A stretch of DNA of 64,000 nt. It comes from a virus. Positions 31,777 to 61,030 of this stretch are shown in pieces (within the stretch, counting starts at the first letter, position 1; each line of letters opens with the position of its first letter). The notes beneath the pieces were generated by a model. It worked only from the letters and a program-made list of their open reading frames with translations. It ran no database searches and had not been told where the DNA came from. The translations under genes and the position numbers were made by a program. Where the stretch lies: the IMG/VR virus record IMGVR_UViG_3300002098_001673, positions 32,001 through 96,000 of that record. The stretch is one strand, 5' to 3'.

Positions 31777-31780
31777 AAAA

Positions 31781-35320: not shown

Positions 35321-36194
35321 TAGTTATTATATTATATATATTATTTGATAATTTTAATTTAAAATCAAAATACCATTTTATTAATTCATTTTGTAAATGA
35401 TAATATTTTTCATTATCCATCATGTAATATTTTTTAATTTCATCCCATGAACTAACAATAGGTAATGGAGAATTACCCCAAACTTTAATAAAATAGTTTA
35501 AATTATTATAATTTTTTAAAATTGGAATAGACCCTGATTCTAGACATTCCATTATCCTAAATGAATCAGGATGAACCCAACCCATGGGACAAGGAACAAA
35601 TTTTGTTTTATTATAAATTGAAATACATTCATTTTGAGTTAACGATGTTGAACAATTCCAAGAATTTGTTTTATGAATAAAAACATTTTCCATTTGTTCC
35701 ATAATTGATAATAGTTCTTGTCTATCTGACTTTGATTGACCAATGAATGAAAACTCATATTCTTTTATTATCGAAGTAATATTATTATTTTTATTAATAA
35801 ATCCTGATTTAACACCTAAAGGAATAAATGTAACATTATTATTAACAATATTAGAATCATAATAATTTCTAAAAACATGTTTAGCTTTTGAGTAATATTT
35901 ACAATTATGTTCTAAGCTTTCATTAGAAAAATGTAATAAATAAAACGTATATCCAAGTTCGACAAATTTATTTAAATAATTATTAAATTCTTCAGATATA
36001 TTATTTAAATTGTTAGAATAAATTATCACAGAATTATCTAAAACTGTTAATAATTTACCATCATCAAAAATTCTTTTTTGTTTAAAGTTTTTAAATAAAA
36101 TTTCCGTAGTATATTCAAATTCAAAAGTTGTTTGGTCTCCATTAAATGTTTGCCAAATTAAATTAATTTTATCCTCAATTTTTGTTGATACCAT
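35304..36194 (-). CDS. GT47 exostosin-like glycosyltransferase
   Basis: FSFIG...KFVPCPMG...DSFRIMECLESGSIPI. Confidence 0.75.
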   Translation of the reverse strand: MVSTKIEDKINLIWQTFNGDQTTFEFEYTTEILFKNFKQKRIFDDGKLLTVLDNSVIIYSNNLNNISEEFNNYLNKFVELGYTFYLLHFSNESLEHNCKYYSKAKHVFRNYYDSNIVNNNVTFIPLGVKSGFINKNNNITSIIKEYEFSFIGQSKSDRQELLSIMEQMENVFIHKTNSWNCSTSLTQNECISIYNKTKFVPCPMGWVHPDSFRIMECLESGSIPILKNYNNLNYFIKVWGNSPLPIVSSWDEIKKYYMMDNEKYYHLQNELIKWYFDFKLKLSNNIYNIITNGTFL

Positions 36195-36202
36195 ATAAAA
36201 AA

Positions 36203-43400: not shown

Positions 43401-44164
43401 TAATGATAAAATTTATTTTCAGCTCTTGCTCCATAATAAAAGAAAGTTCCTTTATTATCAGGATATCTAGCATTCAATCCTACATTAGTATCTCCTGTCC
43501 ATCTATATCTTAAAAGAAATTCTGTTGTCCAACCTAAACTATACCTTTCAGGTAAAACTTGATAGTCGTATCCAAATAATTGATAAAATCCTTGATAGAA
43601 TCCCCCTTTTAATGTTGCAAATCTTCCAACATCACCTACAGGGTCAACAGAATAAAATAAATTATAGTCATACGAATCGTCTTGAAAAATTCTATTAGAA
43701 GGAGTTGTAAACCCTTGAATAGGGTGCATCTTAAATCTTCTATCGTATTTGTATCTACTAAATTTATCGCTTTCATTTGTGTATAAGCCAGTATTGACTT
43801 GAATTGTTTGTCCCGAAAAACTTCTAACAAGACCATTATCAATTCCAGTTAATCCAACATTACAAATGTTAGTTATTTTGCCACAATTTAAAAGGTCCAA
43901 ATTTTTTGGGTTCCAATAATTTTCAGAAACAATAACATCTTTGTTAAAATCCATACAATTAACACACCCAACAGTATCATTACTGTTGATGTCAAATTTT
44001 AACGGCATTCTATTTCCATCATCAATAGCAATAATAAATGGGGAAAAAACAACCTCTTGGTCGTAATCTTTTTCATCTGATGCTAATGAAATGTCGTATA
44101 TCTCTCTTAGTGGCTGGAGATACCATTTGCGAAAATTATATTGATTTATATTTTGATATGACAT
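40418..44164 (-). CDS. 1248-aa virion protein: LamG/ConA-like core, P-domain-like insert, Cys-rich patches, four Pro/Thr-rich tracts
   Basis: LKFFVNG, FIGDISAFRMYTEPLNASQIRHNF (LamG-like end); SHTYPGNVGMLLVAPNG; several TPTPTP tracts. Confidence 0.7.
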   Translation of the reverse strand: MSYQNINQYNFRKWYLQPLREIYDISLASDEKDYDQEVVFSPFIIAIDDGNRMPLKFDINSNDTVGCVNCMDFNKDVIVSENYWNPKNLDLLNCGKITNICNVGLTGIDNGLVRSFSGQTIQVNTGLYTNESDKFSRYKYDRRFKMHPIQGFTTPSNRIFQDDSYDYNLFYSVDPVGDVGRFATLKGGFYQGFYQLFGYDYQVLPERYSLGWTTEFLLRYRWTGDTNVGLNARYPDNKGTFFYYGARAENKFYHYANGEPFTDSDANGIWKLYIQDFEGNNIGSLSSATLSLCSSNICVDHHSKEKNILINDDSIASIYPITFEVLNYDSKIEIVNLTLSGYSHTYPGNVGMLLVAPNGDYSIITGRNGSSNSIESINITLTSSSTTIWDGYSEGVFLNNTEAYGDMPFASPCPYQFVEGNITENLSEFTIYSNIRVTHGLNCLKTCECLDETLSGLSSCHHVYQQSGITVTNCNCSCGCDCPVSSSIPEINPLYDEVSNALSLRLSGDTGNPKLCAKTFTITGGCETTGYCSTGITYTTGTSVTEWCSTRGIFDDCLLTDYSDYERWVQIDAVFERNTYLDKCDLEFKGGTGQIIFDVYEATLQNNSVSLIEPPTTHENPYNPPKVEIVNMNETWIEEKNFRLGKLKFFVNGKIFMVIENFEEIIPRPLNTSKETQIGVAYNISLGGGTQGLHDNLTVSGCADSISGITYQQDPECLPTEVLNKTSYEGLSTEIHLEEYFGGSFIGDISAFRMYTEPLNASQIRHNFKLLKEKYNLLDPFCLKCDLVPSSFDSCKLYLTTENDEDILTQNTEFILAEQDNCSTTPTPTPTPTPTSTISLIPPTNDFTYKIIPNNDLYYEILEPIPPTPTPTPTPTSITPTPTPTSITPTPTPTNTLTPTITETLTPTTTVTETPTETPTNTPTSTIPLTCDSITLSGDNVTTTTNSVVKTSEGGWNASAYSLETYSNAVSLTFQISGSGYLMGGFSYNPTNYSETYQNISYGFYIQPAFLEIYENGNQVTVPGSMVNTDSDVWKVDYNGMDVKYYKNNILLYTSLNSVIQPLHIFFSILTNGFGVTNVCAIGVQPTPTPTITNTETPTPTITESETPTPTPTITETPAETPTQTPTMYYYDVNGYSCGTPCSLVGTYTVMSPTPLTIGYFYNNPENRGYTFEILSLIPAVGGAYDLTGEPGYVDCVMACYPSSPTPTPTYTETPTPTPTSTSIVLINPLLISVDEYLIVGDNQYLEY
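41390..41700 (-). repeat. Pro/Thr coding repeats, including a tandem 27-bp unit
   Basis: gttgg(c/t)gtaggtgttggagttattgaa at 41484-41537 plus a partial third copy; ttgaagttggtgtaggtgttggagttggagttgg at 41533 and 41656. Further PT tracts near 40500-40555 and 40785-40910. Confidence 0.85.
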
Positions 44165-49403: not shown

Positions 49404-49574
49404 ATGGGTAAATATTATGAAAATTTAGGAGATTTAAACAAATTGGTTAAAAAATTAGATAAAAAAAATAATTTATCTGAATTTATTTTATCTTGTTTAA
49501 TTTTTGCAAAAGAACATCCTGAAATGAGTATTCACGAAATTATAAAAAAATCTAAAGAAAAATGGGACAAATGA
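49404..49574 (+). CDS. Hypothetical protein (56 aa, absent from ORF track)
   Basis: Hand translation MGKYYENLGDLNKLV...KEKWDK; fills the gap and has an ATGA overlap with the next gene. Confidence 0.55.
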   Translation: MGKYYENLGDLNKLVKKLDKKNNLSEFILSCLIFAKEHPEMSIHEIIKKSKEKWDK

Positions 49575-51211
49575 TAACTGTAGGTTATTCAACAAGAAAA
49601 TCAAATCCTGAATTTACAGAATATTTGAAAAAAAGTTCTGGATTTAAAAAAATTAATGTTATTGAAAAAATAAATAATGGTGAGAAATCATTGTCTCAAG
49701 TTTATAATGAAATATTATCTGAATCTACAACTGACATAATTGTTTTTTGTCATGACGACATTTATTTTGATACTCCTGGTTGGTATTATAAATTACTAAA
49801 ACATTTTCAAAAAACTGATTATGGTATTTTAGGAGTTGCAGGAACAACAGATATGTCAGAAACTGGTAGATGGTGGGAGACAAATAAAAGAAAAAACATG
49901 ATTGGAATTGTTAATCATGAAAGTGGTGGTAAAAAATGGACATCAAAATATTCTGAAGATTTTAATAACGGTATTAAACAATCTGTAATTGTTGATGGAC
50001 TTTTTATTGCAGTTAATAAACAAAGAATTAAAAGTAATTTTATTGAATCTTTTAAAGGGTTTCACTTTTATGACATTTCTTTTTGTTTTGAAAATCATAT
50101 ACAAGGGGTTAAAGTTGGGGTTATCACAAATGTTAGAATTACACATAAATCTATCGGAGAAACTAATGAACAATGGGAAGAAAATAGAATTCAATTTGCC
50201 GAAAAATATAAAAATAACTTCCCTGCAAAAGTACCTTTTGACCCAAATAAAAGGATAAAAGTTTTATTATCTTGTTTATTTTTCGGAGGATTTACTGGTT
50301 CTGAATTATATGTATTTGAACTCGCTAAAAGTTTAATGAAACTTAATTGCAGTGTTACTGTATTGTCTCAAATAGGAGGTCCATTAACAGATATGGCAAA
50401 AAAAATAGGAATTAAATGTTTATCCTATGAGAACGCTCCAGGGTTTAAATTAGGTGATGGGGTTTGGTCATTTAATGGACCAAACGGAAAAGAAGTTTCA
50501 AAATTAAATACATTATATAAAATATCAGATGTTGATTTTGATATAATACATGTCCAACATAAACCAGTCGCTGAAAGAATTCTTGGTATGTATCCTGACA
50601 TAAATATGATTTGTACAATACACTCTGAAGTAATGTCTAAAAATCTTGAGGACCCAATTATCAATAATTCAATAAAAAAATACATCGCAATTAGACCTGA
50701 AATTAAAGAACATCTTATCAATAATTTTGATATTCCTGAGAATATGATTGAAATCATTTACAATCCTATTGATAATGAAAAATTTAAACATAAAGATATT
50801 AAAGAAGAAAATTGTTTAGTTTTTGTTGGAACAATTGATTATTTGAGAGAAAAGGCGATTAAAGATTTGATTGAAAAAACAAAAAATGATGGATTGGAAT
50901 TATGGCTAATTGGTGAGAATAAATCAAATTATTTGGAAGATATTTTACAAAATTCGCATGTGAAACATTTTCCTCCAACATGGAATGTAGAGCAGTATGT
51001 TACCAAATGTAAAGAAACTGCAGGAATACAATTAGGAAGAACCACAATTGAGGGATGGATGTGTAATAAACCTGGATGGATATATAAAGTAGATTCTAAT
51101 GGTGATATTTTAGAAATAACTAAAAATGAGCCACCCTCCGACATTGAAAAGTATTATTCATTAAATGTTGCCAATCAAATAAAAGAAGAATATATTAAAA
51201 TATTATCATGA
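49571..51211 (+). CDS. Bifunctional GT-A (GT2-like) + GT-B (GT4-like) glycosyltransferase
   Basis: FCHDDI, VDGLF, FHFYD; then TGSELYVFELA, TIHSE, IYNPID. Confidence 0.78.
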   Translation: MITVGYSTRKSNPEFTEYLKKSSGFKKINVIEKINNGEKSLSQVYNEILSESTTDIIVFCHDDIYFDTPGWYYKLLKHFQKTDYGILGVAGTTDMSETGRWWETNKRKNMIGIVNHESGGKKWTSKYSEDFNNGIKQSVIVDGLFIAVNKQRIKSNFIESFKGFHFYDISFCFENHIQGVKVGVITNVRITHKSIGETNEQWEENRIQFAEKYKNNFPAKVPFDPNKRIKVLLSCLFFGGFTGSELYVFELAKSLMKLNCSVTVLSQIGGPLTDMAKKIGIKCLSYENAPGFKLGDGVWSFNGPNGKEVSKLNTLYKISDVDFDIIHVQHKPVAERILGMYPDINMICTIHSEVMSKNLEDPIINNSIKKYIAIRPEIKEHLINNFDIPENMIEIIYNPIDNEKFKHKDIKEENCLVFVGTIDYLREKAIKDLIEKTKNDGLELWLIGENKSNYLEDILQNSHVKHFPPTWNVEQYVTKCKETAGIQLGRTTIEGWMCNKPGWIYKVDSNGDILEITKNEPPSDIEKYYSLNVANQIKEEYIKILS

Positions 51212-52368
51212 AAATTGGTGTTATTGGTGCCGAAAAAGAAGGACTTGCGTTTTCACTCATATGTAAAAAAAACGGATACAATGTGATGATTTCAGATGAA
51301 GATGAAAATTTAATTTTGAATCTAAATCAAGGAATTTATTTACCAAATGATAATAGTATTAAAAAACTTTTATTTGAAATCGGTACTTCACCAACAACAA
51401 CATCAGTTATAGATATAATAAAACATAGTGATATTATTTTTGTATTTGTTCAAACCCCTTTAAATATTGATGGATATTATGATACGAAAAATATTTTTGA
51501 TGTATTAAAATATTTTTACGATTGTTCTTCTTTAGATATTCCATTGTATGATAAAAAGTTTGTTATTTGTTCTTCAACAAATATTGGTGAAGTAGAAGAA
51601 ATACAAAAAAGATTATCTATGTTCAGTATTCAAGTGGCATATAATCCGTTCTTTGTATATGAAGATAATACTGTGAATCAAATTGAGGAATCGGACATCG
51701 TTTTAATTGGAACTGAATTTGAAACATTATCAAATGATTTAATCAATTTATATCGTAAAATTCAAACAAAATCAGTTAACGCATTTGTAATGTCTACAAA
51801 AGCGTCTGAGATGACCAAATTATCAATAAACTCTATGGTTGCTTATAAACTATCGTATTCTAATATGATAGGTGATATTGCAACTAAAATGGGGTTTAAA
51901 GACGAAATAAATTTAATATTCAAAGCTATAGGTAATGATAAAAGAATCGGTGAAAAATCTTTAAATTATAATTTTGGATTTGATGGACCACATTTACATG
52001 GGGATAATAAATCATTAAATTATTTTATAAAAAAAATAGAAATAGATAACGGCTTAATTCAAGGTGTTGAAAATTTTAATGAGTCACATTTAATTTTTTT
52101 AAAAAATTATTATCTAAATTTAAATCCAGATAAAACTATACCATTTATTATTGATGGGATAGGTTTTAAAAAAACAAATAATACAATTGAGAATTCTAAA
52201 AAATATCAACTTTGTATTTCTTTATTAGAAGAGGGATATACTTTATATGTTATTAACAACGAAAAAATAACAAAAGATTTAAATGATTTGAGTGAATCTT
52301 ATAACAATAGAATTAAGTTTTTTAAAATAAACTCAAATTTAAAAGGATGTAAAATTAAAATAAATTAA
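51208..52368 (+). CDS. UDP-glucose/GDP-mannose dehydrogenase homologue with degenerate catalytic motifs
   Basis: FVFVQTP, SEMTKLSIN and IGNDKRIG retained; GxGxxG reads GAEKEG, NPEF reads NPFF, GGxC reads DGPH. Confidence 0.75.
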   Translation: MKIGVIGAEKEGLAFSLICKKNGYNVMISDEDENLILNLNQGIYLPNDNSIKKLLFEIGTSPTTTSVIDIIKHSDIIFVFVQTPLNIDGYYDTKNIFDVLKYFYDCSSLDIPLYDKKFVICSSTNIGEVEEIQKRLSMFSIQVAYNPFFVYEDNTVNQIEESDIVLIGTEFETLSNDLINLYRKIQTKSVNAFVMSTKASEMTKLSINSMVAYKLSYSNMIGDIATKMGFKDEINLIFKAIGNDKRIGEKSLNYNFGFDGPHLHGDNKSLNYFIKKIEIDNGLIQGVENFNESHLIFLKNYYLNLNPDKTIPFIIDGIGFKKTNNTIENSKKYQLCISLLEEGYTLYVINNEKITKDLNDLSESYNNRIKFFKINSNLKGCKIKIN

Positions 52369-52373
52369 ATAAT

Positions 52374-53090
52374 ATGAAATTAAGAGTATTAATCATAAAT
52401 TTAAATAATAAAAATTATACAACTAATTGTATTAACTCATTATTTAATCAAAAATTTAATGAATTCAAAATAACATTATTTGACCAAAATTCTAATGAAG
52501 AAGGGACTAATGAAATGTTGGATTATTTTGAAAGTAAAAATGTTGATGTTATTAGAAATAAAACAAACGACCCTGTAAATTCTGTTTGGAATTGGTTTTA
52601 TAAAAATCATACGGAGGACATTTTATGTTTTTTAAATAATGATGTTTTAATTCATAATAATTTTATATCAGATGTTATTCATGTTTTTGAAAACGAATTA
52701 AATGTCGGTATTGTTGTACATTCTACAAATCATGATGACTTTACAACAAAAAAGGATATTGTTGAGTATAAAATTGTTGAACCAAAAAAATACATGCAAG
52801 GATGGGATTTTAGTATTAGAAGAGAATTATTTACTTTAATACCTGAGATATTAAAAACTTATTGTGGCGATGATTTTATTTTTTATAATTTATATAATAA
52901 AGGTTTTGATTTAGCATATATCACCAGTTCGCCTATGATTCATTTCGAGGGTCAGAGTAAACCTTTTATGATTCACGGTGGATATATTGATACGATAAAT
53001 TATTTAAAATTAGGATTACCTCATAATTTAATGATTAATCCAAACTATTCAAAAATAAAACCCAATAAAATTTTTATCACTAATGGATAA
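52374..53090 (+). CDS. GT2-family glycosyltransferase
   Basis: LFDQNS, FLNNDV, YCGDD. Confidence 0.78.
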   Translation: MKLRVLIINLNNKNYTTNCINSLFNQKFNEFKITLFDQNSNEEGTNEMLDYFESKNVDVIRNKTNDPVNSVWNWFYKNHTEDILCFLNNDVLIHNNFISDVIHVFENELNVGIVVHSTNHDDFTTKKDIVEYKIVEPKKYMQGWDFSIRRELFTLIPEILKTYCGDDFIFYNLYNKGFDLAYITSSPMIHFEGQSKPFMIHGGYIDTINYLKLGLPHNLMINPNYSKIKPNKIFITNG

Positions 53091-53676
53091 CGATATTATA
53101 GATATTGTTGCGGTAACATACGGACAGAATGAAATATTAAAATGTTTTATCAATTCAATAAAAGCGCAAACCAATAATAACTGGAGACTTTTTTTGATTC
53201 ATGATGGTAAAAATAATGAATTACATAATGATTTGAGAGAAAATGGTTACCTAAATGAAAATGTTATTTTTATAGAATATCCTGAAAGAACTATGAATTA
53301 TGGTCATTCTTTAAGAAAATGGGCTTTGGAAAATTTAGTGACCAATGAATATGTTCTTTTAACTAATGGGGATAATTACTATACACCAAATATGGTTAGT
53401 GAAGTATTAAATAAAAAAGAGGATTTAATATATTTTGATTGCGTTCACTCACACAATAACATAATGAATCATAATAAATCTTCATATGGTTACATGAATA
53501 GTATTTTATCTATTTCTAATATCGATATGGGATGTGTTGTTGTTAGAACTAGTATTGCTAAATCTGTAGGATTTAATTCGATTGGATTTGCAGCAGATTG
53601 GAATTATTTTAGTGATGTAATTAAAAAAAATCCCTCAATAATAAAAATAAACAAAATCTTGTTTGTTCATAACTAA
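53083..53676 (+). CDS. GT2-family glycosyltransferase
   Basis: IHDG, TNGDNYY, IDMGC, AADW. Confidence 0.78.
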   Translation: MDNDIIDIVAVTYGQNEILKCFINSIKAQTNNNWRLFLIHDGKNNELHNDLRENGYLNENVIFIEYPERTMNYGHSLRKWALENLVTNEYVLLTNGDNYYTPNMVSEVLNKKEDLIYFDCVHSHNNIMNHNKSSYGYMNSILSISNIDMGCVVVRTSIAKSVGFNSIGFAADWNYFSDVIKKNPSIIKINKILFVHN

Positions 53677-53690
53677 AAAAAATAAAACTG

Positions 53691-54179
53691 ATGGATTTAA
53701 TAAATTTTAAAAATAAAGACTATCCATATTTTCAGTCTATAGGATACGCCTCTCAATTTGCAATACCATACGCAAAATTTTTTTGTAAAGGAATTGGTTA
53801 TGATATTGGATGTAAGAGAATTGAATGGTCTTTTCCTGGTTCAATACCAATTGACCCTGTAATTAATGAAAAATATGACGCAACCAACTTACCAAACAAT
53901 AATGTTGATTACATTTTCTCAAGTCATTGTTTAGAACATTTAACTGATTGGGTTTCCGTTTTAGATTATTGGTACGATTCTATAAAAGAAGAAGGAGTAA
54001 TTTTTCTTTATCTTCCCAGTTATTCGCAAGAATATTGGAGACCTTGGAATAATAAAAAACATGTTAACATTTTTACACCTCAAATAATTTCAGATTATTT
54101 CAATCATAAGAATATGAAAAATATTTTTTATAGTGGGATTGATTTGAATAACTCCTTTATGATTGTTGCGGAAAAATGA
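53691..54179 (+). CDS. Class I SAM methyltransferase (type 11-like)
   Basis: GYDIGC; DYIFSSHCLEH; GVIFLYLP. Confidence 0.8.
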   Translation: MDLINFKNKDYPYFQSIGYASQFAIPYAKFFCKGIGYDIGCKRIEWSFPGSIPIDPVINEKYDATNLPNNNVDYIFSSHCLEHLTDWVSVLDYWYDSIKEEGVIFLYLPSYSQEYWRPWNNKKHVNIFTPQIISDYFNHKNMKNIFYSGIDLNNSFMIVAEK

Positions 54180-54880
54180 AATACATATTTAATCAATATC
54201 AAGGATTGGGGGATATTTTATTTTGTGAACCTATTGCCAAATATTTTTATGAAGATGGGAATAATGAAATTTTATGGCCAGTAAATGATGAGTTTATGTG
54301 GTTAACTGACTACATAAAATATATTAATTTTGTTCCTAAATCAAGTTGTAATATTAATTACGAATCATTACATTTGGGGTTACTTGATTCAAATACATAT
54401 TTTGTACCATTACGATTTGCAAATCCAATTGTTAGGAAATTAAGACCTCACGATTATTCTGACCAATATCACACAATGTTAGATAAATATAGGATGTTAA
54501 ATCTTCCTGAAGATATGTGGAGAACATTTAAATGGGAAAGAAATTTAACTAAAGAAAATGAACTTTATGATTTACTAATAAAAGATGAAAACTATATATT
54601 AGTTAACGGTAAATGGAGTGATGGTAATGTTGAAATTAAAACTGAATCTAATTTTAAAAGAATTGAAATGAGTATTTTAAACGGATTCTCATTATTTGAT
54701 TGGTCTAAAATTATTGAAAATGCTTTGGAAATTCATACTGTATCCACATCAAATTTATTTTTATTAGAAACTTTAAAATTAAAAACTGATAAAATTAATA
54801 TCTACCTAAGAAAACCAAGAGAAAATAATTTTGACGGTATATCTGAATTTGTTAATAAAAATTTTAAATTGATTTTATAA
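54176..54880 (+). CDS. Putative GT-B glycosyltransferase-like protein
   Basis: QGLGDIL N-terminus; DWSKIIENALEIHTVSTS; cluster context. Confidence 0.5.
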   Translation: MKYIFNQYQGLGDILFCEPIAKYFYEDGNNEILWPVNDEFMWLTDYIKYINFVPKSSCNINYESLHLGLLDSNTYFVPLRFANPIVRKLRPHDYSDQYHTMLDKYRMLNLPEDMWRTFKWERNLTKENELYDLLIKDENYILVNGKWSDGNVEIKTESNFKRIEMSILNGFSLFDWSKIIENALEIHTVSTSNLFLLETLKLKTDKINIYLRKPRENNFDGISEFVNKNFKLIL

Positions 54881-54881
54881 A

Positions 54882-55625
54882 ATGAAAATTAACTCTTATG
54901 GAATAAATTTTATTTTTAATAATCAAAAAAATAAAAAAATACCTAATTTTGATTGGTTTATCGATGTGTTAAAAAAACAAATATGGGAACCTGAAACTTT
55001 TAAAATTTTTAATAAATTTAAAGATAAAGATAAAATTGCCATTGATATTGGAGGATGGATTGGTCCTACAACAATTTTTTTATCTAAAATCTTTAAAGAA
55101 GTAATAACAATTGAAGCAGATATTATCGCTTTTGAGTCATTATCCGAAAATATTAAAGATAATTTTTGTGAAAATGTTACTTTGCATAATAAAGCGTTCC
55201 ATAACAGTAAAACTAATAATATTTTTTTTGGTGTTAATAATTTTGAATTTGACTCTATTTTAGGTTCATCAACAAGTCAGACTAAAACTGAAAAAAAAAT
55301 AGATAATGATTATTTAATCGATACAATTAATATTATTAATTTAATAGAAAATATTGACCCATATAACATAGGTTTAATAAAAGTTGATATTGAGGGTGGT
55401 GATGAAGATGTTTTTGAAGAATTAATTTTATTTGGTTCTAAATATGGGTGGAAAATATGGATTTCATTTCATTATGAATGGTGGAAAGATAAAAATATTA
55501 AAAAATTTGAACACTTAATACCTTTGATAAAAAAAGTTAGTATAAATAGTGATGAAATATTAAAAAATGATTTGTTATCATTAATAAAAAAAAATGTACC
55601 AGAATCATTTCTAATTGAACTATAA
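54882..55625 (+). CDS. FkbM-family methyltransferase
   Basis: IDIGGWIG; IEAD; IKVDIEGGD. Confidence 0.82.
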   Translation: MKINSYGINFIFNNQKNKKIPNFDWFIDVLKKQIWEPETFKIFNKFKDKDKIAIDIGGWIGPTTIFLSKIFKEVITIEADIIAFESLSENIKDNFCENVTLHNKAFHNSKTNNIFFGVNNFEFDSILGSSTSQTKTEKKIDNDYLIDTINIINLIENIDPYNIGLIKVDIEGGDEDVFEELILFGSKYGWKIWISFHYEWWKDKNIKKFEHLIPLIKKVSINSDEILKNDLLSLIKKNVPESFLIEL

Positions 55626-55634
55626 ATTTATAAA

Positions 55635-56372
55635 ATGAAAATACACTCATACATCGTTGCATATAATGAAGAAAAATTATTACCATTCACTTTAGATTAT
55701 TATTCTATTTTCTGTGAAAAAATATTTATTTACGATAATTTTTCAACAGACTCTTCTGATGAGATTTATAAAAAATATAATAAAGTTATTGTAAATAAAT
55801 TTGATACTCAAAATACACAAGATGAAATTATTACAAGAAATATTAAATCAAATGAGTATAAAAAATATAGTAGAAATTGCGATGTTGATTGGGTAATTAT
55901 TGCCGATTGTGACGAATTTATATACCATCCTAATTTAATTGAAAAGCTTAAAGAATATAAAAAAAATGGTATCACAGTGGCTCAAACAAGTGGACATGAA
56001 ATGGCTAGTGTAACATTTCCCGAATATGATGGACAATTATTGCCAAACATAATTAAAATAGGTTCTGAAAAAATGAAAATGTTATCTAAAAATACTATTT
56101 TTAATCCAAATATTGATATTAATTTTGGTATAGGAACACATAATTTTACTTCCAATAATACAGTTTTATCCCCTAACGATGATATTAAAATTTTGCATTA
56201 CAAGTGTTTAGGTAAAGAATATGTTACTAACATATATAAAGAACGATTTAAAAGATTAAGCCATTCAAGTAAAATGAACGCATGGAATACTCATTATTCT
56301 AAAATAGATGAATTTATAAAACTGATGGATGATATCTTAGAAAAAAATAAAAATGTTGTAGATAATTTATAA
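55635..56372 (+). CDS. GT2-like glycosyltransferase
   Basis: AYNEE, YDNFSTD, WVIIADCDEF, ILHYK. Confidence 0.8.
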   Translation: MKIHSYIVAYNEEKLLPFTLDYYSIFCEKIFIYDNFSTDSSDEIYKKYNKVIVNKFDTQNTQDEIITRNIKSNEYKKYSRNCDVDWVIIADCDEFIYHPNLIEKLKEYKKNGITVAQTSGHEMASVTFPEYDGQLLPNIIKIGSEKMKMLSKNTIFNPNIDINFGIGTHNFTSNNTVLSPNDDIKILHYKCLGKEYVTNIYKERFKRLSHSSKMNAWNTHYSKIDEFIKLMDDILEKNKNVVDNL

Positions 56373-57037
56373 TGATACCAGTAACATTTACTATTACTTC
56401 CTGTAATAGAATTGATTTATTAAAAAAAACAATAGATAGTTTTACATCAATTAACAATTATATAATTGATGAATTTATATTATCTGATGATTCTGATAAT
56501 ACAGAAATTTCAAATCATATAAAAATTAATTACGGAGATAAATTTAAAATAATTTCAAACTCACCAAGAATAGGACTCTCAAAAAGTTTGGATAATTTAT
56601 TTAAAACTTCAAAAAATGAATTTATTTTTCATTGCGAGGATGATTGGATGTTTGATAGTAATCCTAATTTAATTAATAATTCTTTAGATATATTAAATGA
56701 AAATCCAGATATACATCAAGTAAGTGTTAGGCACGCTTATAATAGTCCTCATAAACCTATTGGAGATAAACTATATACTAGTACATCGGTAGAATATTGG
56801 ATTTTAAGTCAAGAATTCAGAAGTATGCCAACACAAGTATGGAATGGGTATAGTTGGAACCCTGGATTAAGGCGTAAATCAGATTATTTAAAAATGTTTC
56901 CTAACGGTTTATCCGAATTTGGTGATGAATATAATTGCGCCGATTATGTAAGAAAATTTAACTATAAATCCGCAGCATTGGTTAATACTTCTTGTTATCA
57001 TTTAGGAATAGAAAGGACTAAAAATTTTATATTATAA
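56372..57037 (+). CDS. GT2-like glycosyltransferase
   Basis: TSCNRIDLL, SDDS, FHCEDDW, WNPGLRR. Confidence 0.78.
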   Translation: MIPVTFTITSCNRIDLLKKTIDSFTSINNYIIDEFILSDDSDNTEISNHIKINYGDKFKIISNSPRIGLSKSLDNLFKTSKNEFIFHCEDDWMFDSNPNLINNSLDILNENPDIHQVSVRHAYNSPHKPIGDKLYTSTSVEYWILSQEFRSMPTQVWNGYSWNPGLRRKSDYLKMFPNGLSEFGDEYNCADYVRKFNYKSAALVNTSCYHLGIERTKNFIL

Positions 57038-57048
57038 AATATTATAAC

Positions 57049-58338
57049 ATGGATTTATTAATAAATGGAAAATTTGTTAAAGTCATAGAATATGAAACAG
57101 ATATTAATGGATTAAAATTCAGGCCTCAATTTGATATAAATTACAATAATGATGCTGATTGGGAATCATTTACTTTGTCTCACACACAAGAAGTATCCCA
57201 AAGAAATTATAATCTTGTAAAAGAAATAACATCAAATTATATGACTCATGGTATCATGGAAATTGGTATTTCCAGAAATGGTGATGGGTCTTTTACAAAT
57301 GCAATTTTAAATAACAAACCAAATAACATACCTTATTTAGGTGTTGATATAGAAGATAAAACATATTTAAATAATGAATTTAAAAAAATTTTCACAATTA
57401 AAGAAAATTCATTTAATCAAAGAACTGTTAGAAATTATGCAAAAAAAATAGGATTAGAAAAAATATCAATACTTTTTATTGACGGTTGGCATTCTTTAAA
57501 TGCTGCGATAAATGATTGGATGTATTCTGATATGTTATCAGATAATGGTATTGTAATAATTCACGACACAAATGGGCATCCGGGTCCATATGTTCTTATG
57601 GAATCAATAGATGAAACAAAATATAGAATAGAAAAACATTTCCAAAATGAAGATGATTATGGTATTGGAATTGCATATAAATTAAATAATAATTTACGAC
57701 AAATTTTTAGAAATTATGGTTCATACGGTAGAATTGAATTAAATGAAGACCATTGTGGACCAGGGTCAACTTTATGGTATACTCAACCAATTCGTAATCA
57801 ATTACTTCCTTTATTAAAAAAATATAATATTAATAGTATATTAGATGCTCCTTGTGGAGATTTCCAATGGATGAGTAAAATTAATTTCCCTCAAGAATTC
57901 GATTATTTAGGTGGGGATTTACATGAATCTTTAATAGAAAGAAATAGAAAATTATATAAAAAAAATTTTATGGTAATTGATATTACAGAAGATATATTAC
58001 CATCAAAAGATTTACTCTTTGTGAGAGATTGTCTATTTCATTTAACCGATGAATTTAAATTAAAATTTTTTAAAAATTTTTTATCATCTAATTTCAAATA
58101 CATATTAACAAGTAATCATCCTAAACACAATTATAATAAAGATGTTAGTATTTCGATGGATGGTCATTTTCATGAAAACATTAATTGGGAATTACCTCCT
58201 TGGAATTTTCCAAAATCAATAGACACTATTATAGATTATGATGAAAAAAATTCTAATTTTTTATATTACCCATATAGAACAATGGAATTATGGTCATTTG
58301 AACAAATAAAGTCGGTGTTTAAAGATTATTTTATATGA
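57049..58338 (+). CDS. Tandem two-domain SAM methyltransferase
   Basis: Domain 1 MEIGI...LFIDGWHS...IHDT; domain 2 CGPGST...ILDAPCGDFQW...RDCLFHL. Confidence 0.75.
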   Translation: MDLLINGKFVKVIEYETDINGLKFRPQFDINYNNDADWESFTLSHTQEVSQRNYNLVKEITSNYMTHGIMEIGISRNGDGSFTNAILNNKPNNIPYLGVDIEDKTYLNNEFKKIFTIKENSFNQRTVRNYAKKIGLEKISILFIDGWHSLNAAINDWMYSDMLSDNGIVIIHDTNGHPGPYVLMESIDETKYRIEKHFQNEDDYGIGIAYKLNNNLRQIFRNYGSYGRIELNEDHCGPGSTLWYTQPIRNQLLPLLKKYNINSILDAPCGDFQWMSKINFPQEFDYLGGDLHESLIERNRKLYKKNFMVIDITEDILPSKDLLFVRDCLFHLTDEFKLKFFKNFLSSNFKYILTSNHPKHNYNKDVSISMDGHFHENINWELPPWNFPKSIDTIIDYDEKNSNFLYYPYRTMELWSFEQIKSVFKDYFI

Positions 58339-58766
58339 TACTAATATCTCATAGAGGAAATATTAATGGAAAAAATTCTGATAGAGAAAACTCAATAGAA
58401 TATATCGAAGAAGCTCTTGATATGGGTTATAATGTTGAAATTGATGTTTGGGTTATTGATAATAAATTTTATTTGGGTCATGATAATCCACTTTATGAAG
58501 TGGATTTTTTATTTTTAATTAATAATAAATTATGGTGCCATGCAAAAAATTTAGAAGCGTTATTAAAAATGAAAAATTATGATATAAATTGTTTTTGGCA
58601 TGAAAATGACGAATTTACTCTTACTTCAAAAAATTACATATGGAGTTATCCAAGAAAAGAAAGTTGTGAAAATACTATTGTGGTTATGCCAGAAATATTT
58701 AACACTAATATCGATAATTGTTTAGGAATTTGTTCTGATTTTATTGCAAATTATAAAGAACATTAA
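58335..58766 (+). CDS. Minimal GDPD/PLC-like phosphodiesterase
   Basis: ISHRGN, EN, VEIDVW, LGHD, HAKN, GICSD. Confidence 0.75.
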   Translation: MILISHRGNINGKNSDRENSIEYIEEALDMGYNVEIDVWVIDNKFYLGHDNPLYEVDFLFLINNKLWCHAKNLEALLKMKNYDINCFWHENDEFTLTSKNYIWSYPRKESCENTIVVMPEIFNTNIDNCLGICSDFIANYKEH

Positions 58767-58817
58767 AATCGTATACTTTTTAATAATCATGATTAATTTT
58801 ATACAAAATATATTATT

Positions 58818-59537
58818 GTGGTTAATGTAATAATACCAATGGCAGGTGCAGGAAGAAGATTTTATGACGCAGGGTATACAATACCAAAACCATTTATCCC
58901 CGTTTTCAAAAAACCAATGGTACAATCAGTTGTTGAAAATTTAAATATTAATGGAAATTATATTTTTATAATTCAAAAACAACATTCAATTGGTAATAAT
59001 TTAGAAATTTTTTTAAACAGTATTAGTCCAGGATGTGTGATAATTTCAATAGATGAATTAACCGATGGACCCGCATGTACCGCCTTATTAGCTGAAAAAT
59101 ATATTGACGATAATCCATTGATTATTGTTAATTGTGACCAAATAATACACGACTTTGATGTGAATAAATTACTTGAATTTAGTGAAAAAAATAATGCTGA
59201 TGGTATTTTAGGTGCATTTATTTCTTCTTCAAAGAAAAATTCTTACATGAAATTAGACCCCCATGGTGAAGTAACCGAAGTAAAAGAAAAAATTGTTATA
59301 AGTAATATTGCAACTAATGGATTACATTTTTGGAAAAATGGTAAAGATTTTATATCTTCTGCTAAAGAAATGATTTTATCAGGTGAAAAATATAATAATG
59401 AATTTTATATTGCACCATCTTATAATCATTTAATAAAATTAAATAAAAAAATATTACCATACTTCTATAATTTACATTTTCCAATAGGAACTCCTGAAGA
59501 TTTAAAAATTTATCAAAACTTATATGGATATAATTAA
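58818..59537 (+). CDS. Sugar-phosphate nucleotidyltransferase (NTP_transferase family)
   Basis: IPMAGAGRRF...PKPFI, TDGPACT, VNCDQ, EVKEK, NEFYIAP, IGTPEDL; GTG start. Confidence 0.85.
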   Translation: MVNVIIPMAGAGRRFYDAGYTIPKPFIPVFKKPMVQSVVENLNINGNYIFIIQKQHSIGNNLEIFLNSISPGCVIISIDELTDGPACTALLAEKYIDDNPLIIVNCDQIIHDFDVNKLLEFSEKNNADGILGAFISSSKKNSYMKLDPHGEVTEVKEKIVISNIATNGLHFWKNGKDFISSAKEMILSGEKYNNEFYIAPSYNHLIKLNKKILPYFYNLHFPIGTPEDLKIYQNLYGYN

Positions 59538-59844
59538 AATGAAAACTATGTTGGGTGGGTGGTTTATAGGAAACTTTGAACCATCAGCATACAAAACAGA
59601 CCAGTTTGAAGTTTGTTATAAACATCATTATAAAGGTGAAAAATGGGATTCTCATTATCATAAAGAAAGTACTGAAATAAATTATTTGGTTAATGGAAAA
59701 ATGATTATTCAAAACAAAGAATTAAACACTGGAGATATATTCATATTAAAACCTTATGAAATTGCTGACCCGGTCTTTATTGAAGATTGTACAGTTTTAA
59801 TTGTTAAAACTCCATCAGTACCTAAAGATAAATATATTATATAA
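59524..59844 (+). CDS. Cupin (RmlC-like) protein
   Basis: GWFIGNFEP; HYHKESTEINY...G; overlaps the nucleotidyltransferase gene. Confidence 0.75.
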   Translation: MDIIKMKTMLGGWFIGNFEPSAYKTDQFEVCYKHHYKGEKWDSHYHKESTEINYLVNGKMIIQNKELNTGDIFILKPYEIADPVFIEDCTVLIVKTPSVPKDKYII

Positions 59845-59845
59845 T

Positions 59846-61030
59846 ATGGTAGATATTTTTAGAGAAAATGTAGATACAGAAAAATATTTTATAGTTACAT
59901 ATTATTTGGAATCCCAAAGTAATTTAAGAGACGCATCTTGGAATTTAGCTATAGGTCAAAGTGTTGGTAATCCAAACGTAAGAAATCAATGGGAAACCGA
60001 TGAATTATTTGAAAATCACTCCTGCATTATATTAGATTATGAATTAAGATTAGAAACACTCTCTAAAGGAATTGTAAAAATCGCCTTCCCTATTATTAAT
60101 ATAGATTTTAAAACTGATGGTATTTCACATCTGTTAGTTAATATAATGGGGGGACAGATGGATATTGATAATATTAATAAATGCTCTGTAATAGATATCG
60201 AATTTCCAAAATCAGTAAAAGATTGTTTTTTAGGTCCCAAATTCGGAATTAATGGTATAAGAGAATATACAAAAGTTTTTAATAAACCATTGTTAGGTGC
60301 AATTATAAAACCAAAAACAGGTATCTCACCAAAGGTCCTTTTAGAAATGGTTAAAGAACTAGTTGATGGTGGGGTTAATTTTATTAAAGAAGATGAAATA
60401 ATGAGTAATCCTTCTTTTTGTAAAATAGAAGAAAGAGTTCCATTAATAATGGATTATCTAAAAGATAAAAATGTAATTTACTGTGTTTCAATTCATTCTG
60501 ATTATCCATACATAATTGATAGAGTTAAACAAGTATATGAGTTAGGTGGTAATGGAGTCCACGTTAATTTTTGGTGTGGTGTTGGAGTATATAAAGCAAT
60601 TAGAGAATTAGACCTTCCAATATTTGTTCATTTTCAAAAATCAGGAGATAAAATCATAACCAATAAGAATCATGATTTTCATATTGATTGGAGAGTTATC
60701 TGCAAATTGGCAGGAATGATGGGGGTCGATTTTATTCATGCAGGTATGATTGGTGGGTATTATAAATGGGATGAAATTGAAACAATTGATGCCGTAAAAA
60801 TTTTAAACGAACATAATGTAATGCCAGCTTTAAGTTGTGGATTTCATCCTGGATTAACTAAATGGGTTACAGATAAAATTGGTACTGACTATATGGCAAA
60901 TGTTGGTGGAGCGATTCACGGACATCCTAATGGTACTACAGATGGAGCAAAAGCCATGAGACAAAGTATTGATGGTATTTACAAAAAAGAATATGAAAGA
61001 GCAATACATAAATGGGGTAAAATATATTAA
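59846..61030 (+). CDS. RuBisCO-like protein (form IV-type, predicted non-carboxylating)
   Basis: GPKFGINGIR, GAIIKPKTG, GGVNFIKEDE, GVDFIHAG, PALSCG, NVGGAIHGHPNG..GAKAMRQ; likely start ATG 59846. Confidence 0.9.
   Translation: MVDIFRENVDTEKYFIVTYYLESQSNLRDASWNLAIGQSVGNPNVRNQWETDELFENHSCIILDYELRLETLSKGIVKIAFPIINIDFKTDGISHLLVNIMGGQMDIDNINKCSVIDIEFPKSVKDCFLGPKFGINGIREYTKVFNKPLLGAIIKPKTGISPKVLLEMVKELVDGGVNFIKEDEIMSNPSFCKIEERVPLIMDYLKDKNVIYCVSIHSDYPYIIDRVKQVYELGGNGVHVNFWCGVGVYKAIRELDLPIFVHFQKSGDKIITNKNHDFHIDWRVICKLAGMMGVDFIHAGMIGGYYKWDEIETIDAVKILNEHNVMPALSCGFHPGLTKWVTDKIGTDYMANVGGAIHGHPNGTTDGAKAMRQSIDGIYKKEYERAIHKWGKIY

What the first reader, a model, noticed from the sequence alone, without database searches (positions are those of the whole stretch)
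58335..61030. Phage RuBisCO-like protein coupled to a nucleotidyltransferase, cupin and phosphodiesterase: possible new sugar-donor pathway
Seen: NTP-transferase overlaps cupin by 14 nt, the RLP ATG follows the cupin stop after 1 nt, and a GDPD-like gene lies just upstream, all at the end of a GT/methyltransferase cluster. By-eye alignment to RbcL: K175/K177 (IKPK), K201/D203/E204 (KEDE instead of KDDE), H327, S379 and G403/G404 are kept; E60 (AIGQS), N123 (MGGQ), H294 (HFQK) and K334 (GGYY) appear replaced. Established: such losses exclude CO2 fixation, and characterised RLPs are enolases, isomerases or (trans/de)carboxylases in methionine salvage or branched-sugar catabolism (apiose, hamamelose). 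Inference: this RLP works biosynthetically, rearranging a sugar phosphate into an unusual (branched or acid) unit that the cupin modifies, the transferase activates as an NDP/NMP donor and the GTs install. I know of no characterised RLP in glycan biosynthesis.
Basis: partly seen in the sequence, partly recalled or inferred. Interest (0 to 1): 0.88.

Follow-up and report, generated by a model that had tools for sequence, protein, structure and literature searches.

The report
Phage RuBisCO-like sugar-activation gene cassette
A freshwater tailed phage carries an intact RuBisCO relative that cannot fix CO2 and is wired, as in about 190 other viral contigs, SAR11, Legionella and tiny archaea, to a sugar-activating enzyme, a small cupin and a miniature phosphodiesterase. 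It most likely prepares an unusual activated unit for surface sugars, a role never tested for this enzyme family.

Summary
In detail: gene layout, overlaps and every residue call hold. The four genes are a miniature GDPD-fold protein, a 4EVW-like sugar-phosphate nucleotidyltransferase (NTP-transferase), a metal cupin closest in fold to mini phosphomannose isomerases, and a RuBisCO-like protein (RLP).

- **Recurrence.** Loci were fetched by RLP similarity alone. In 80 viral loci the transferase is present in 79, mini-GDPD in 73 and the cupin in 57. In 48 cellular loci the transferase is adjacent in 42.
- **Fusions.** RLP-transferase-cupin, RLP-transferase and miniGDPD-RLP fusions all exist.
- **Clade.** All 123 RLPs compared share an invariant signature, with E60G, N123G, H294Q and K334Y beside K175, K177, K201, D203 and E204. 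They form one clade (support 100), apart from carboxylases and MtnW-type enolases.
- **Cellular context.** This is surface glycan throughout: the border of SAR11 hypervariable region 2, LicD in Legionella, and GT2/GtrA in a Francisellaceae genome.
- **RLP-less version.** Cultured cyanophages hold the transferase, mini-GDPD and DUF7796 without the RLP. Two of them carry a class II aldolase and a sugar isomerase instead.

Best reading (0.6): the RLP is an enolising isomerase that supplies a nucleotide-activated glycan unit. The substrate is unknown.

Phage RLPs themselves were reported by Jaffe et al. This scan found the same cassette before on other DNA.

The parts
49562..57037 (+). Glycan island upstream of the cassette: a GT2_5+GT4 fusion, a UDP-glucose/GDP-mannose-dehydrogenase-like gene, four GT2 genes, and class I and FkbM methyltransferases
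   Evidence: Pfam. All genes are on one strand, with gaps of at most 14 nt or overlaps.
57049..58338 (+). 429-aa protein made of two methyltransferase-like halves. The N-terminal half (Methyltransf_24-like) is a frequent cassette neighbour.
   Evidence: Pfam PF13578 weak. phrog_3382 methyltransferase on the C-terminal half. Relatives of the N-terminal half, about 210 aa, occur in 28 of 80 viral loci, often directly beside the RLP. The gene overlaps the mini-GDPD start by 4 nt.
58335..58766 (+). Miniature GDPD-fold protein of 143 aa (phrog_34507, function unknown)
   Evidence: No Pfam or NCBIfam hit. A profile matches the N-terminal catalytic motifs of GDPD 7e0v, E 1e-4. AF2 pLDDT is 96.8. VIA-align Z is 8-10.6 to 20 GDPD/PLD chains over residues 1-143. 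H6, R7, E18, N19, E35, D37, H49, H69, K71 and H89 are invariant. Present in 73 of 80 viral loci.
58818..59537 (+). Sugar-phosphate nucleotidyltransferase of the 4EVW-like subfamily (phrog_3980)
   Evidence: PF00483, 47 bits against a cut-off of 21. A profile gives 2e-36 to PDB 4evw (uncharacterised NDP-sugar pyrophosphorylase). The next matches, GDP-mannose, dTDP-glucose and heptose enzymes, lie at 1e-11 to 1e-8. All NCBIfam equivalogs score far below their cut-offs. Present in 79 of 80 viral loci and adjacent in 42 of 48 cellular loci.
59524..59844 (+). 106-aa metal-site cupin (phrog_24762)
   Evidence: Motif H44-x-H46-x4-E51 plus H35, conserved. AF2 pLDDT is 97.3. The top Foldseek matches are the Thermococcus mini phosphomannose isomerases 7zvm and 7zvy, then KdgF. 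Present in 57 of 80 viral loci and fused to the transferase or to RLP-transferase in others.
59846..61030 (+). RuBisCO-like protein, 394 aa, of the 'GNPG-Q-Y' clade
   Evidence: PF00016, 1.3e-34. Best solved relatives are 8dht at 1.5e-38 and 2oek at 1e-35. The active-site signature is invariant in 123 sequences. One clade, SH-aLRT 100. No PHROG family.

Best explanation
The four genes form one conserved precursor-supply cassette of a glycan island.

- **RLP.** It keeps the Mg2+/carbamate core (K175, K177, K201, D203, E204) and the phosphate-gripping glycines. It has lost every residue specific to carboxylation. It is therefore read as an enolising isomerase or epimerase that rearranges a common ketose phosphate.
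- **Cupin.** The small metal cupin is a second isomerase-type step.
- **Nucleotidyltransferase.** The 4EVW-like enzyme couples the resulting sugar phosphate to a nucleotide.
- **Mini-GDPD.** It handles a phosphodiester at the transfer end of the pathway.
- **Installation.** Glycosyl- or phospho-transferases of the island (GT2 here; DUF7796, LicD or GT2/GtrA elsewhere) install the unit on a surface glycan of the infected cell or of the virion.

Shown: the gene identities, the linkage, the fusions, the invariant active site and the glycan context. Inferred: the reaction type, the order of steps, the substrate, and whether the unit is transferred as a sugar or as a sugar-phosphate.
For: 1. **Linkage.** Loci were fetched by RLP similarity alone. 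In viruses the transferase is present in 79 of 80 loci, the mini-GDPD in 73 and the cupin in 57, often with 1-14 nt overlaps. In cells the transferase is adjacent in 42 of 48 loci, down to 34% RLP identity. These include Legionella, Francisellaceae, Nonomuraea, Turneriella, DPANN, CPR and SAR11.
2. **Fusions.** P0121 and P0122 are RLP-transferase-cupin, P0124 is RLP-transferase, and P0159 is miniGDPD-RLP. Transferase-cupin fusions occur in L032, L033, L036 and L037.
3. **Glycan context in cells.**
 - In the closed genome of Pelagibacter sp. Uisw_094 the cassette begins about 1 kb past the 23S rRNA gene. In a SAR11 single-cell genome it lies 3.2 kb from the 5S rRNA gene. These are the two borders of SAR11 hypervariable region 2, which is known for glycosyl- and methyltransferases (PMC3448164). 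GT9 and a CMP-sugar-type cytidylyltransferase lie alongside.
 - Four Legionellaceae genomes have LicD (3e-43) divergent from RLP-transferase.
 - A Francisellaceae genome has a Wzz-like gene, RLP, cupin, transferase, an 8-TM protein, GT2, mini-GDPD and GtrA in a row.
 - WavE, GT1/GT4 and SDR epimerases recur.
4. **One isofunctional RLP family.** An 18-position signature is invariant in 78 viral and 45 cellular sequences. The family is a single clade, SH-aLRT 100.
5. **Fold leads.** The cupin is nearest to mini phosphomannose isomerases. Transferase+cupin repeats the ManC/AlgA architecture (my knowledge).
6. **Exchangeable front end.** Cultured cyanomyophages lack the RLP. They carry the same transferase subfamily (35-45% identity, fused to a HAD_2 domain in S-CAM9 and B23), the mini-GDPD and DUF7796 paralogues inside GT islands. 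In Bellamy and S-SM2 a 'class II aldolase/adducin' gene and a 'phosphoheptose isomerase' gene sit directly before the mini-GDPD. No homologue of that aldolase was found in the 128 RLP loci.
Against: - No biochemical datum exists for any of the four proteins.
- The cassette holds no kinase, mutase or phosphatase. A route from a common metabolite to a sugar-1-phosphate is therefore not closed on paper, although a HAD_2 domain is fused to the transferase in L005 and L013.
- A phosphodiesterase has no obvious place in a classical nucleotide-sugar pathway.
- RuBisCO-fold active sites are known only with small linear sugar phosphates and in catabolic or salvage roles.
- The window has no DUF7796 or LicD gene, so the enzyme that uses the product here is not identified.
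Confidence: 0.6

Rival explanations
1. Same pathway, other order. The transferase first activates a common sugar-1-phosphate. The RLP and the cupin then rearrange the nucleotide-bound keto-sugar, as RmlC- or FdtA-type cupins do. The RLP's P1 phosphate site would hold the beta-phosphate of the nucleotide.
For: - The P1-site glycines G381, G403 and G404 are invariant. The partner-subunit residues that close over P1 and the substrate (E60, T65, W66, N123) are replaced by G, N, P and G in all 123 sequences, which would open space there (the structural reading is my inference).
- SDR epimerase/dehydratase genes lie within 7 kb of the RLP in 35 of 80 viral loci and within 8 kb in 14 of 48 cellular loci.
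- The cassette has no mutase or kinase, so the transferase may well take a ready-made sugar-1-phosphate.
Against: - No RuBisCO-fold enzyme is known to act on a nucleotide sugar.
- More than half of the loci lack an SDR nearby, this window among them.
- The cupin's nearest folds are sugar-phosphate isomerases and KdgF. No RmlC or FdtA is named among the listed matches.
Confidence: 0.15
2. A methionine-salvage-like recycling module. RLP, cupin and, in some loci, a HAD phosphatase would mirror MtnW, MtnD and MtnX, or the Rhodospirillum RLP plus cupin methylsulfurylase. The module would dispose of the S-adenosylmethionine by-products made by the island's many methyltransferases and radical-SAM enzymes.
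For: - The second-best solved relative is DK-MTP-1-P enolase 2oek, E 1e-35.
- An RLP next to a cupin is the pattern of both known salvage routes (my knowledge; papers listed, not read).
- HAD_2 domains are fused to the transferase in L005 and L013.
- Methyltransferases and radical-SAM genes are frequent neighbours.
Against: - The RLP scores 153.5 and 133.9 bits against MtnW cut-offs of 409 and 513.6.
- It has Gly, not Lys, at position 123. The YkrW-like group forms a distant, separate clade.
- No MtnK, MtnA or MtnB partner was seen in the annotated neighbours, and no homologue of the class II aldolase (MtnB-family) query was found in the 128 RLP loci.
- Salvage has no use for a nucleotidyltransferase, yet the transferase is the most constant and even fused partner.
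- The Pfam scan at E <= 0.01 returned only a weak Cupin_7 match for the cupin. No acireductone dioxygenase is named among the listed Foldseek matches.
Confidence: 0.06
3. The activated unit is used to hypermodify phage DNA (sugar on a base) rather than a surface glycan.
For: - Large phages combine nucleotidyltransferases, GTs and methyltransferases for DNA modification (my knowledge).
- The Nonomuraea locus has an integrase and a deoxynucleoside-kinase-like gene nearby.
Against: - The same cassette sits in chromosomal envelope-glycan settings: SAR11 hypervariable region 2, LicD in Legionella, GT2/GtrA and membrane proteins in a Francisellaceae genome, and WavE.
- No base-hydroxymethylase or DNA glycosyltransferase was seen in the cassette.
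Confidence: 0.04
4. A true carboxylase, or an AMP-pathway-type RuBisCO that draws carbon from nucleotides.
For: The best solved and NCBIfam relatives are form III enzymes.
Against: - E60, N123, H294 and K334 are all replaced, invariantly.
- The RLP scores 185 bits against a form III cut-off of 497.
- It forms a clade separate from the sequences with the full catalytic signature.
- No AMP phosphorylase or ribose-1,5-bisphosphate isomerase was seen among the annotated neighbours.
Confidence: 0.01

Closest known systems
'Form IV-like' RuBisCO-related proteins of phages and Beckwithbacteria (Jaffe, Castelle, Dupont and Banfield; bioRxiv 10.1101/386292 = PMC6389311)
   Same: Phage-borne, in myovirus-type and roughly 200-kb phages. 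Divergent key residues. Groups with a Beckwithbacteria sequence: L090 is 57% identical and lies inside the clade.
   Different: In the passages I read, that work leaves the function open, and none of them mentions the transferase, cupin and mini-GDPD linkage, the fusions, or the SAR11, Legionella and actinomycete members. Here the phage sequences are nested inside a wider cellular clade.
DK-MTP-1-P enolase MtnW/YkrW (PDB 2oek) with MtnX and MtnD
   Same: RuBisCO fold with K175, K201, D203 and E204 kept. Enolisation chemistry. A cupin acts downstream.
   Different: Gly instead of the catalytic Lys at position 123. Scores far below the family cut-offs. A separate clade. The constant partner is a nucleotidyltransferase, not salvage enzymes.
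Type II phosphomannose isomerase / GDP-mannose pyrophosphorylase (ManC, AlgA, XanB) and the archaeal mini phosphomannose isomerases (7zvm, 7zvy)
   Same: A nucleotidyltransferase joined to or beside a metal cupin that isomerises a sugar phosphate. The cupin's best fold matches are these mini isomerases.
   Different: Sequence identity is only about 20%. No phosphomannomutase is present. An RLP and a mini-GDPD are added.
NDP-heptose pathway (GmhA isomerase, kinase, GmhB HAD phosphatase, HddC/HldC transferase)
   Same: A ketose phosphate is isomerised, carried through a 1,7-bisphosphate, trimmed by a HAD phosphatase and nucleotidylated. HddC-type enzymes are among the transferase's relatives. 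HAD_2-transferase fusions and 'phosphoheptose isomerase' genes occur in sister cassettes.
   Different: In the RLP cassettes the RLP stands where an isomerase or aldolase-family enzyme stands. No kinase is conserved.
Glycerophosphodiester phosphodiesterases (GDPD, PF03009)
   Same: Same barrel (Z about 10 over the whole model). The HR, EN, ExD and HD motifs are kept.
   Different: 143 aa against 220-250 aa. Below Pfam detection. A virus-dominated family of unknown substrate.
PDB 4evw, uncharacterised NDP-sugar pyrophosphorylase
   Same: Full-length match to the transferase profile, E 2e-36.
   Different: No function is assigned to it, so it adds no substrate information.

Membership tests
Carboxylating RuBisCO (forms I-III) | Catalytic set E60, N123, K175, K177, K201, D203, E204, H294, K334 | tested here: not met
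   E60G, N123G, H294Q and K334Y in the window and in all 123 clade members. K175, K177, K201, D203 and E204 are kept.
Carboxylating RuBisCO (forms I-III) | Score over the curated family cut-off (TIGR03326 form III; NF010002 form II) | tested here: not met
   184.9 bits against 497.45, and 97 bits against 489.
RuBisCO large-chain superfamily (PF00016) | Catalytic-domain match over the Pfam gathering score | tested here: met
   120.3 bits against 30.1.
DK-MTP-1-P enolase MtnW/YkrW | Equivalog cut-off, Lys at position 123, and clade membership | tested here: not met
   153.5 bits against 409 and 133.9 bits against 513.6. Gly at position 123. The N123K group is a separate clade.
3-oxo-isoapionate-4-phosphate decarboxylase OiaX | Equivalog cut-off | tested here: not met
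   143.5 bits against 700.
Phage/Beckwithbacteria 'IV-like' RLP clade | Phage-borne RLP that groups with Beckwithbacteria, apart from the other forms | tested here: met
   Clade with SH-aLRT 100 that holds the window, 7 viral rows and the Beckwithbacteria MAG row L090.
Sugar-phosphate nucleotidyltransferase (PF00483) | Gathering score and the N-terminal G-x-G-x-R loop | tested here: met
   47.2 bits against 21.2. P7, G10, G12 and R14 are invariant.
Named transferases (RmlA, GalU, GlmU-type, MurU, HddC) | NCBIfam equivalog cut-offs | tested here: not met
   All score 20-46 bits against cut-offs of 250-660.
GDPD (glycerophosphodiester phosphodiesterase) | Pfam PF03009 match | tested here: not met
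   No family at E <= 0.01.
GDPD (glycerophosphodiester phosphodiesterase) | GDPD barrel fold with the catalytic His/Arg, Glu/Asp metal site and second His | tested here: met
   Z 8-10.6 to 20 GDPD/PLD chains over residues 1-143. H6, R7, E18, E35, D37 and H49 are invariant. The N-terminal motifs match 7e0v, E 1e-4.
GDPD (glycerophosphodiester phosphodiesterase) | Hydrolysis of glycerophosphodiesters | not testable with these tools
   Needs an enzyme assay.
Cupin superfamily, metal-binding | Double-stranded beta-helix with the HxH...E motif | tested here: met
   pLDDT 97.3, 142 PDB matches at E <= 1e-3, all cupins among those listed. H44, H46 and E51 are conserved.
Acireductone dioxygenase (MtnD) | Sequence or fold match to ARD | tested here: inconclusive
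   The Pfam scan at E <= 0.01 returned only a weak Cupin_7 match. No ARD is named among the listed Foldseek matches. An absent match does not exclude the family.

The most novel reading that the evidence does not exclude
A new reaction class for the RuBisCO fold: a biosynthetic sugar-phosphate isomerase or epimerase that feeds a dedicated nucleotidyltransferase. The resulting sugar or sugar-phosphate donor is undescribed. It decorates cell envelopes in strain-variable islands, such as SAR11 hypervariable region 2. Large phages copy the cassette to rewrite or mimic the host surface during infection.
Probability: 0.45. Interest if true: 0.85.

Novelty: new variant of a known kind. Interest (0 to 1): 0.74.

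Why it matters
**Open question.** The function of the phage 'IV-like' RuBisCO relatives has been open since they were reported in 2018-2019. All characterised RuBisCO-like proteins work in salvage or catabolism.

**What the cassette offers.** It gives a concrete, testable biosynthetic hypothesis and names cultured systems for the test:
- Pelagibacter sp. Uisw_094;
- Legionella drozanskii, L. nautarum and L. maceachernii;
- Nonomuraea rosea;
- the RLP-less comparators, Synechococcus phages Bellamy, S-SM2, S-CAM9 and B23.

**If confirmed**, three things follow:
- a new chemistry is added to the best-studied enzyme fold on Earth;
- an unknown activated sugar is revealed;
- phage auxiliary genes are linked to the hypervariable surface-glycan island thought to govern SAR11-phage interactions.

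Tried and rejected
Contexts came from the search for related loci and annotated records instead.
- **RLP in other collections.** No match in the 50,697 GenBank phage records, none in the plasmids, and no PHROG family.
- **Expression.** No RNA holder was listed. The DNA holders are freshwater metagenomes.
- **Promoter and terminator scan.** Counts were no higher than in shuffled sequence in this AT-rich DNA, so it says nothing about transcription units.
- **Foldseek on the mini-GDPD model.** Only weak E-values. The exhaustive VIA-align search was needed to see the fold.
- **DUF7796 family profile against the PDB.** Nothing credible. The Atlas holds no model of it.
- **P2-site variants and the cupin.** I asked whether the two P2-site variants of the RLP (K295/D298/H327 against S/A/Q) track the presence of the cupin. 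They do not.
- **'Long GDPD-like paralogues'.** My first clustering suggested these. They were an artefact of single linkage through one fusion protein (L006). The long proteins are DUF7796, unrelated to the mini-GDPD.
- **A literature search with 'IV-GOS'** was swamped by plant RLP papers and gave nothing.

Full report
**Observation.**
- The 143-aa GDPD-like gene lies at 58335-58766 and overlaps the upstream methyltransferase-like gene by 4 nt.
- After a 51-nt gap comes the nucleotidyltransferase at 58818-59537. It has a GTG start, which the conserved N-terminus of its homologues supports.
- The cupin lies at 59524-59844, a 14-nt overlap with the transferase.
- One base after the cupin stop, the RLP ATG lies at 59846, and the gene ends at 61030.
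- Upstream, 49562-58338 is an unbroken same-strand run of GT2, GT4, sugar-dehydrogenase-like and methyltransferase genes.
- Downstream lies phoH.

**The phage.** The window is part of a 105-kb IMG/VR virus record with a CheckV completeness estimate of 36%.
- GC content is about 27% throughout, the cassette included.
- It carries tail-sheath, DNA-polymerase and helicase genes.
- The polymerase is only about 24% identical to any GenBank phage.
- The DNA recurs in freshwater metagenomes.

**The four proteins.**
- *RLP.* It matches PF00016 at 1.3e-34. Its best solved relatives are a RuBisCO chain (8dht, 1.5e-38) and DK-MTP-1-P enolase (2oek, 1e-35).
- *Transferase.* It matches PF00483 over its cut-off. 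A profile of 52 homologues matches one uncharacterised structure, 4evw, at 2e-36. The named GDP-mannose, dTDP-glucose and heptose enzymes follow only at 1e-11 to 1e-8. Every NCBIfam equivalog scores far below its cut-off.
- *Cupin.* It has a conserved H-x-H-x4-E metal motif. The confident model (pLDDT 97.3) is closest to the 105-115-aa Thermococcus phosphomannose isomerases and to KdgF.
- *GDPD-like protein.* It has no Pfam or NCBIfam hit. Its profile finds the N-terminal catalytic motifs of GDPDs at 1e-4. Its model (pLDDT 96.8) aligns over all 143 residues with 20 GDPD/PLD chains at Z 8-10.6. The HR, EN, ExD and HD residues are invariant. It is a miniature GDPD barrel of a virus-dominated family.

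**Recurrence in viruses.** A scan of IMG/VR with the RLP alone found 193 contigs, at 55-94% identity among the 80 loci kept, on contigs of up to 294 kb.
- In the 80 loci fetched, the transferase is present in 79, the mini-GDPD in 73 and the cupin in 57.
- A Methyltransf_24-like gene is present in 28.
- The flanks differ from locus to locus.
- Gene order varies, with the mini-GDPD before the transferase or after the RLP. Starts and stops often overlap.
- The RLP is the most conserved member.

**Recurrence in cells.** A scan of one genome per prokaryotic species found 48 loci at 34-63% identity.
- *Hosts.* A closed Pelagibacter genome, SAR11 single-cell genomes, a Verrucomicrobiae chromosome, CPR bacteria including Beckwithbacteria, DPANN archaea, four Legionellaceae, a Francisellaceae genome, Nonomuraea rosea, Azospirillum and Turneriella.
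- *Linkage.* The transferase is adjacent in 42 of the 48 loci. The cupin and the mini-GDPD are present in many.
- *Context.* It is envelope glycan throughout.
  - In Pelagibacter sp. Uisw_094 the 16S-tRNA-tRNA-23S cassette ends about 1.3 kb from the RLP.
  - In SAG-MED47 the 5S rRNA gene lies 3.2 kb away.
  - These are the two borders of SAR11 hypervariable region 2, known for glycosyl- and methyltransferases (PMC3448164). GT9, a CMP-sugar-type cytidylyltransferase and a HAD-transferase fusion lie alongside.
  - In Legionella, a LicD gene (3e-43) is divergent from RLP-transferase.
  - In Francisellaceae the row is a Wzz-like gene, RLP, cupin, transferase, an 8-TM protein, GT2, mini-GDPD and GtrA.
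  - WavE, GT1/GT4 and SDR epimerases recur.
- *Frequency.* The gene is rare within lineages. It was found in 2 of 301 sampled genomes of the Pelagibacter family and in 5 of 149 Legionellaceae. This fits a strain-variable surface trait.

**Fusions.** P0121 and P0122 are RLP-transferase-cupin, P0124 is RLP-transferase, and P0159 is miniGDPD-RLP. L032, L033, L036 and L037 are transferase-cupin. L005 and L013 have a HAD_2-transferase fusion in the cassette position. Each partner is therefore found covalently joined to the RLP somewhere.

**The RLP clade.**
- Across 78 viral and 45 cellular sequences, 18 active-site positions are invariant: G60, N65, P66, G123, I173, K175, K177, K201, E202, D203, E204, Q294, Y334, S379, C380, G381, G403 and G404.
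- An exhaustive search of 1.8 billion cluster representatives shows a gap in score between this group (at least 249 bits) and most other full-length relatives (at most about 180 bits). A few weaker rows still carry the signature.
- In a tree of 124 rows the signature group is one clade with SH-aLRT 100. It stands apart from rows with the full carboxylase signature and from the N123K (YkrW-like) rows.
- The phage rows are nested among the Pelagibacter, Verrucomicrobiae and Beckwithbacteria rows. The Legionella, actinomycete and Turneriella rows branch deeper. The root is a midpoint root only.
- The scores are far below the curated cut-offs of form III, form II, MtnW and OiaX.
- So the RLP is neither a carboxylase nor a member of a characterised RLP family.

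**A cassette without the RLP.** Cultured Synechococcus myophages lack the RLP.
- They hold the same transferase subfamily at 35-45% identity. It is HAD_2-fused in S-CAM9 and B23, and duplicated in Bellamy and S-SM2.
- They also hold the mini-GDPD (38-48% identity) and several DUF7796 paralogues, all inside GT islands.
- Bellamy also has the cassette cupin.
- In Bellamy and S-SM2 the genes directly before the mini-GDPD are annotated as class II aldolase/adducin family and phosphoheptose isomerase (depositors' names).
- No homologue of that aldolase occurs in any of the 128 RLP loci.
- I read this as a constant back end (transferase, mini-GDPD, DUF7796 or other transferases) and an exchangeable sugar-phosphate-rearranging front end, of which RLP plus cupin is one version.

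**Mechanism, shown and inferred.**
- *Shown.* The gene identities, the linkage, the fusions, the invariant site and the glycan context.
- *Inferred from established RuBisCO chemistry.* With K201, D203 and E204 kept, together with K175, the enzyme can still form a metal-bound enediolate. Without E60, N123, H294 and K334 it cannot add CO2 or cleave. The likely outcome is therefore reprotonation, that is, epimerisation or carbonyl migration of a ketose phosphate.
- *Further inference.* The cupin would be a second isomerase, the transferase makes the nucleotide donor, and the mini-GDPD acts on a phosphodiester at the transfer end.
- *Open.* LicD in Legionella hints at phospho-transfer. GT2/GtrA in Francisellaceae hints at glycosyl transfer. 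This is unresolved.
- *Unknown.* The substrate. Pentulose or heptulose phosphates are only examples.

**Rivals.**
- The RLP acts after activation, on a nucleotide-bound keto-sugar (0.15).
- A methionine-salvage-like recycling module (0.06).
- DNA hypermodification (0.04).
- Carboxylation (0.01).
Evidence for and against each is listed in the Rival explanations section.

**Novelty.** Phage RLPs are known, with their function left open (Jaffe et al.). I found no paper that ties an RLP to a nucleotidyltransferase, LicD or glycan synthesis. This scan had already met the same cassette on other DNA and read it in the same way.
- the invariant signature and the clade test;
- the SAR11 hypervariable-region placement;
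- the LicD and Gtr-type contexts;
- the miniGDPD-RLP fusion;
- the RLP-less cyanophage cassettes.

**Limits.** There is no biochemistry and no expression data, and the RLP was not modelled. ORFs in loci were called mechanically, with the longest ORF kept, so some starts are approximate and the high-GC loci (L119) were poorly resolved.

Noticed in passing
window 29217-37468 (- strand): A second glycan-type gene block: HtrL_YibB, GT7C-like, a GT10 fucosyltransferase-like gene, a TylF/Methyltransf_24 sugar O-methyltransferase, a protein with the RXYLT1 C-terminal domain (the ribitol-phosphate xylosyltransferase family, 8e-12) and a PF11397 GlcNAc-transferase (phrog_24687 at 2.8e-163). Together with LicD in Legionella, the RXYLT1-like hit is a faint hint at polyol- or sugar-phosphate-linked glycans.
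   Followed up: partly
L130 (S-CAM9), L131 (B23), L132 (Bellamy), L133 (S-SM2): Cultured Synechococcus myophages carry an RLP-less version of the cassette: the 4EVW-like transferase (HAD-fused or duplicated), the mini-GDPD and DUF7796 paralogues. In Bellamy and S-SM2 there is also a class II aldolase and a short 'phosphoheptose isomerase'. None of these genes has a known role.
   Followed up: partly
L003:8808-9464, L037:4160-7288, L005, L065 and others: DUF7796 proteins (about 220-270 aa, motif YDxVIxxRxD) occur in 1-5 tandem copies beside the cassette in many phages. They also lie next to it in SAR11 single-cell genomes, in L100 and in L125. One is fused to the mini-GDPD in L006. No structure or function is known. 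The window has none.
   Followed up: partly
RLP positions 265, 268 and 298 (R295, H298, H327 in RuBisCO numbering): The distal phosphate site comes in two forms. K/D/H is found in most viral and nearly all cellular sequences. S/A/Q is found in 25 viral sequences, and the three sampled in the tree form one subclade. The forms do not track cupin presence. This may mark a second substrate.
   Followed up: partly
window 57049-58338: The 429-aa protein is a fusion of two methyltransferase-like halves. In the closest relative (L002) the N-terminal half is a separate 216-aa gene that is 86% identical. The C-terminal half has a relative in only one other locus.
   Followed up: partly
L083:2749-4119, L005:6777-8138, L013:4602-5972, L007:13569-14963: HAD_2-nucleotidyltransferase fusions of about 455-465 aa. 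In L005 and L013 they replace the plain transferase inside the cassette. In L007 and in Pelagibacter they are an extra copy.
   Followed up: partly
window 1-9705 (- strand) and 40418-44164 (- strand): Three very large ORFs: 1445 aa (open at the window edge), 1685 aa and 1248 aa. The 1685-aa ORF has no PHROG match and the 1248-aa ORF only a marginal one; the 1445-aa ORF was not scanned.
   Followed up: no
window 19676-23632 (+): A 1318-aa ORF that matches helicase, primase and terminase-large-subunit-like PHROGs in different parts. This is an unusual multi-domain replication protein.
   Followed up: no
L118 (Nonomuraea rosea): The cassette (mini-GDPD, RLP, cupin, transferase, GT2) lies next to a phage-type integrase, a protein with an AdoHcyase NAD-binding domain, and a deoxynucleoside-kinase-like gene. 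It may sit on an integrated element.
   Followed up: no
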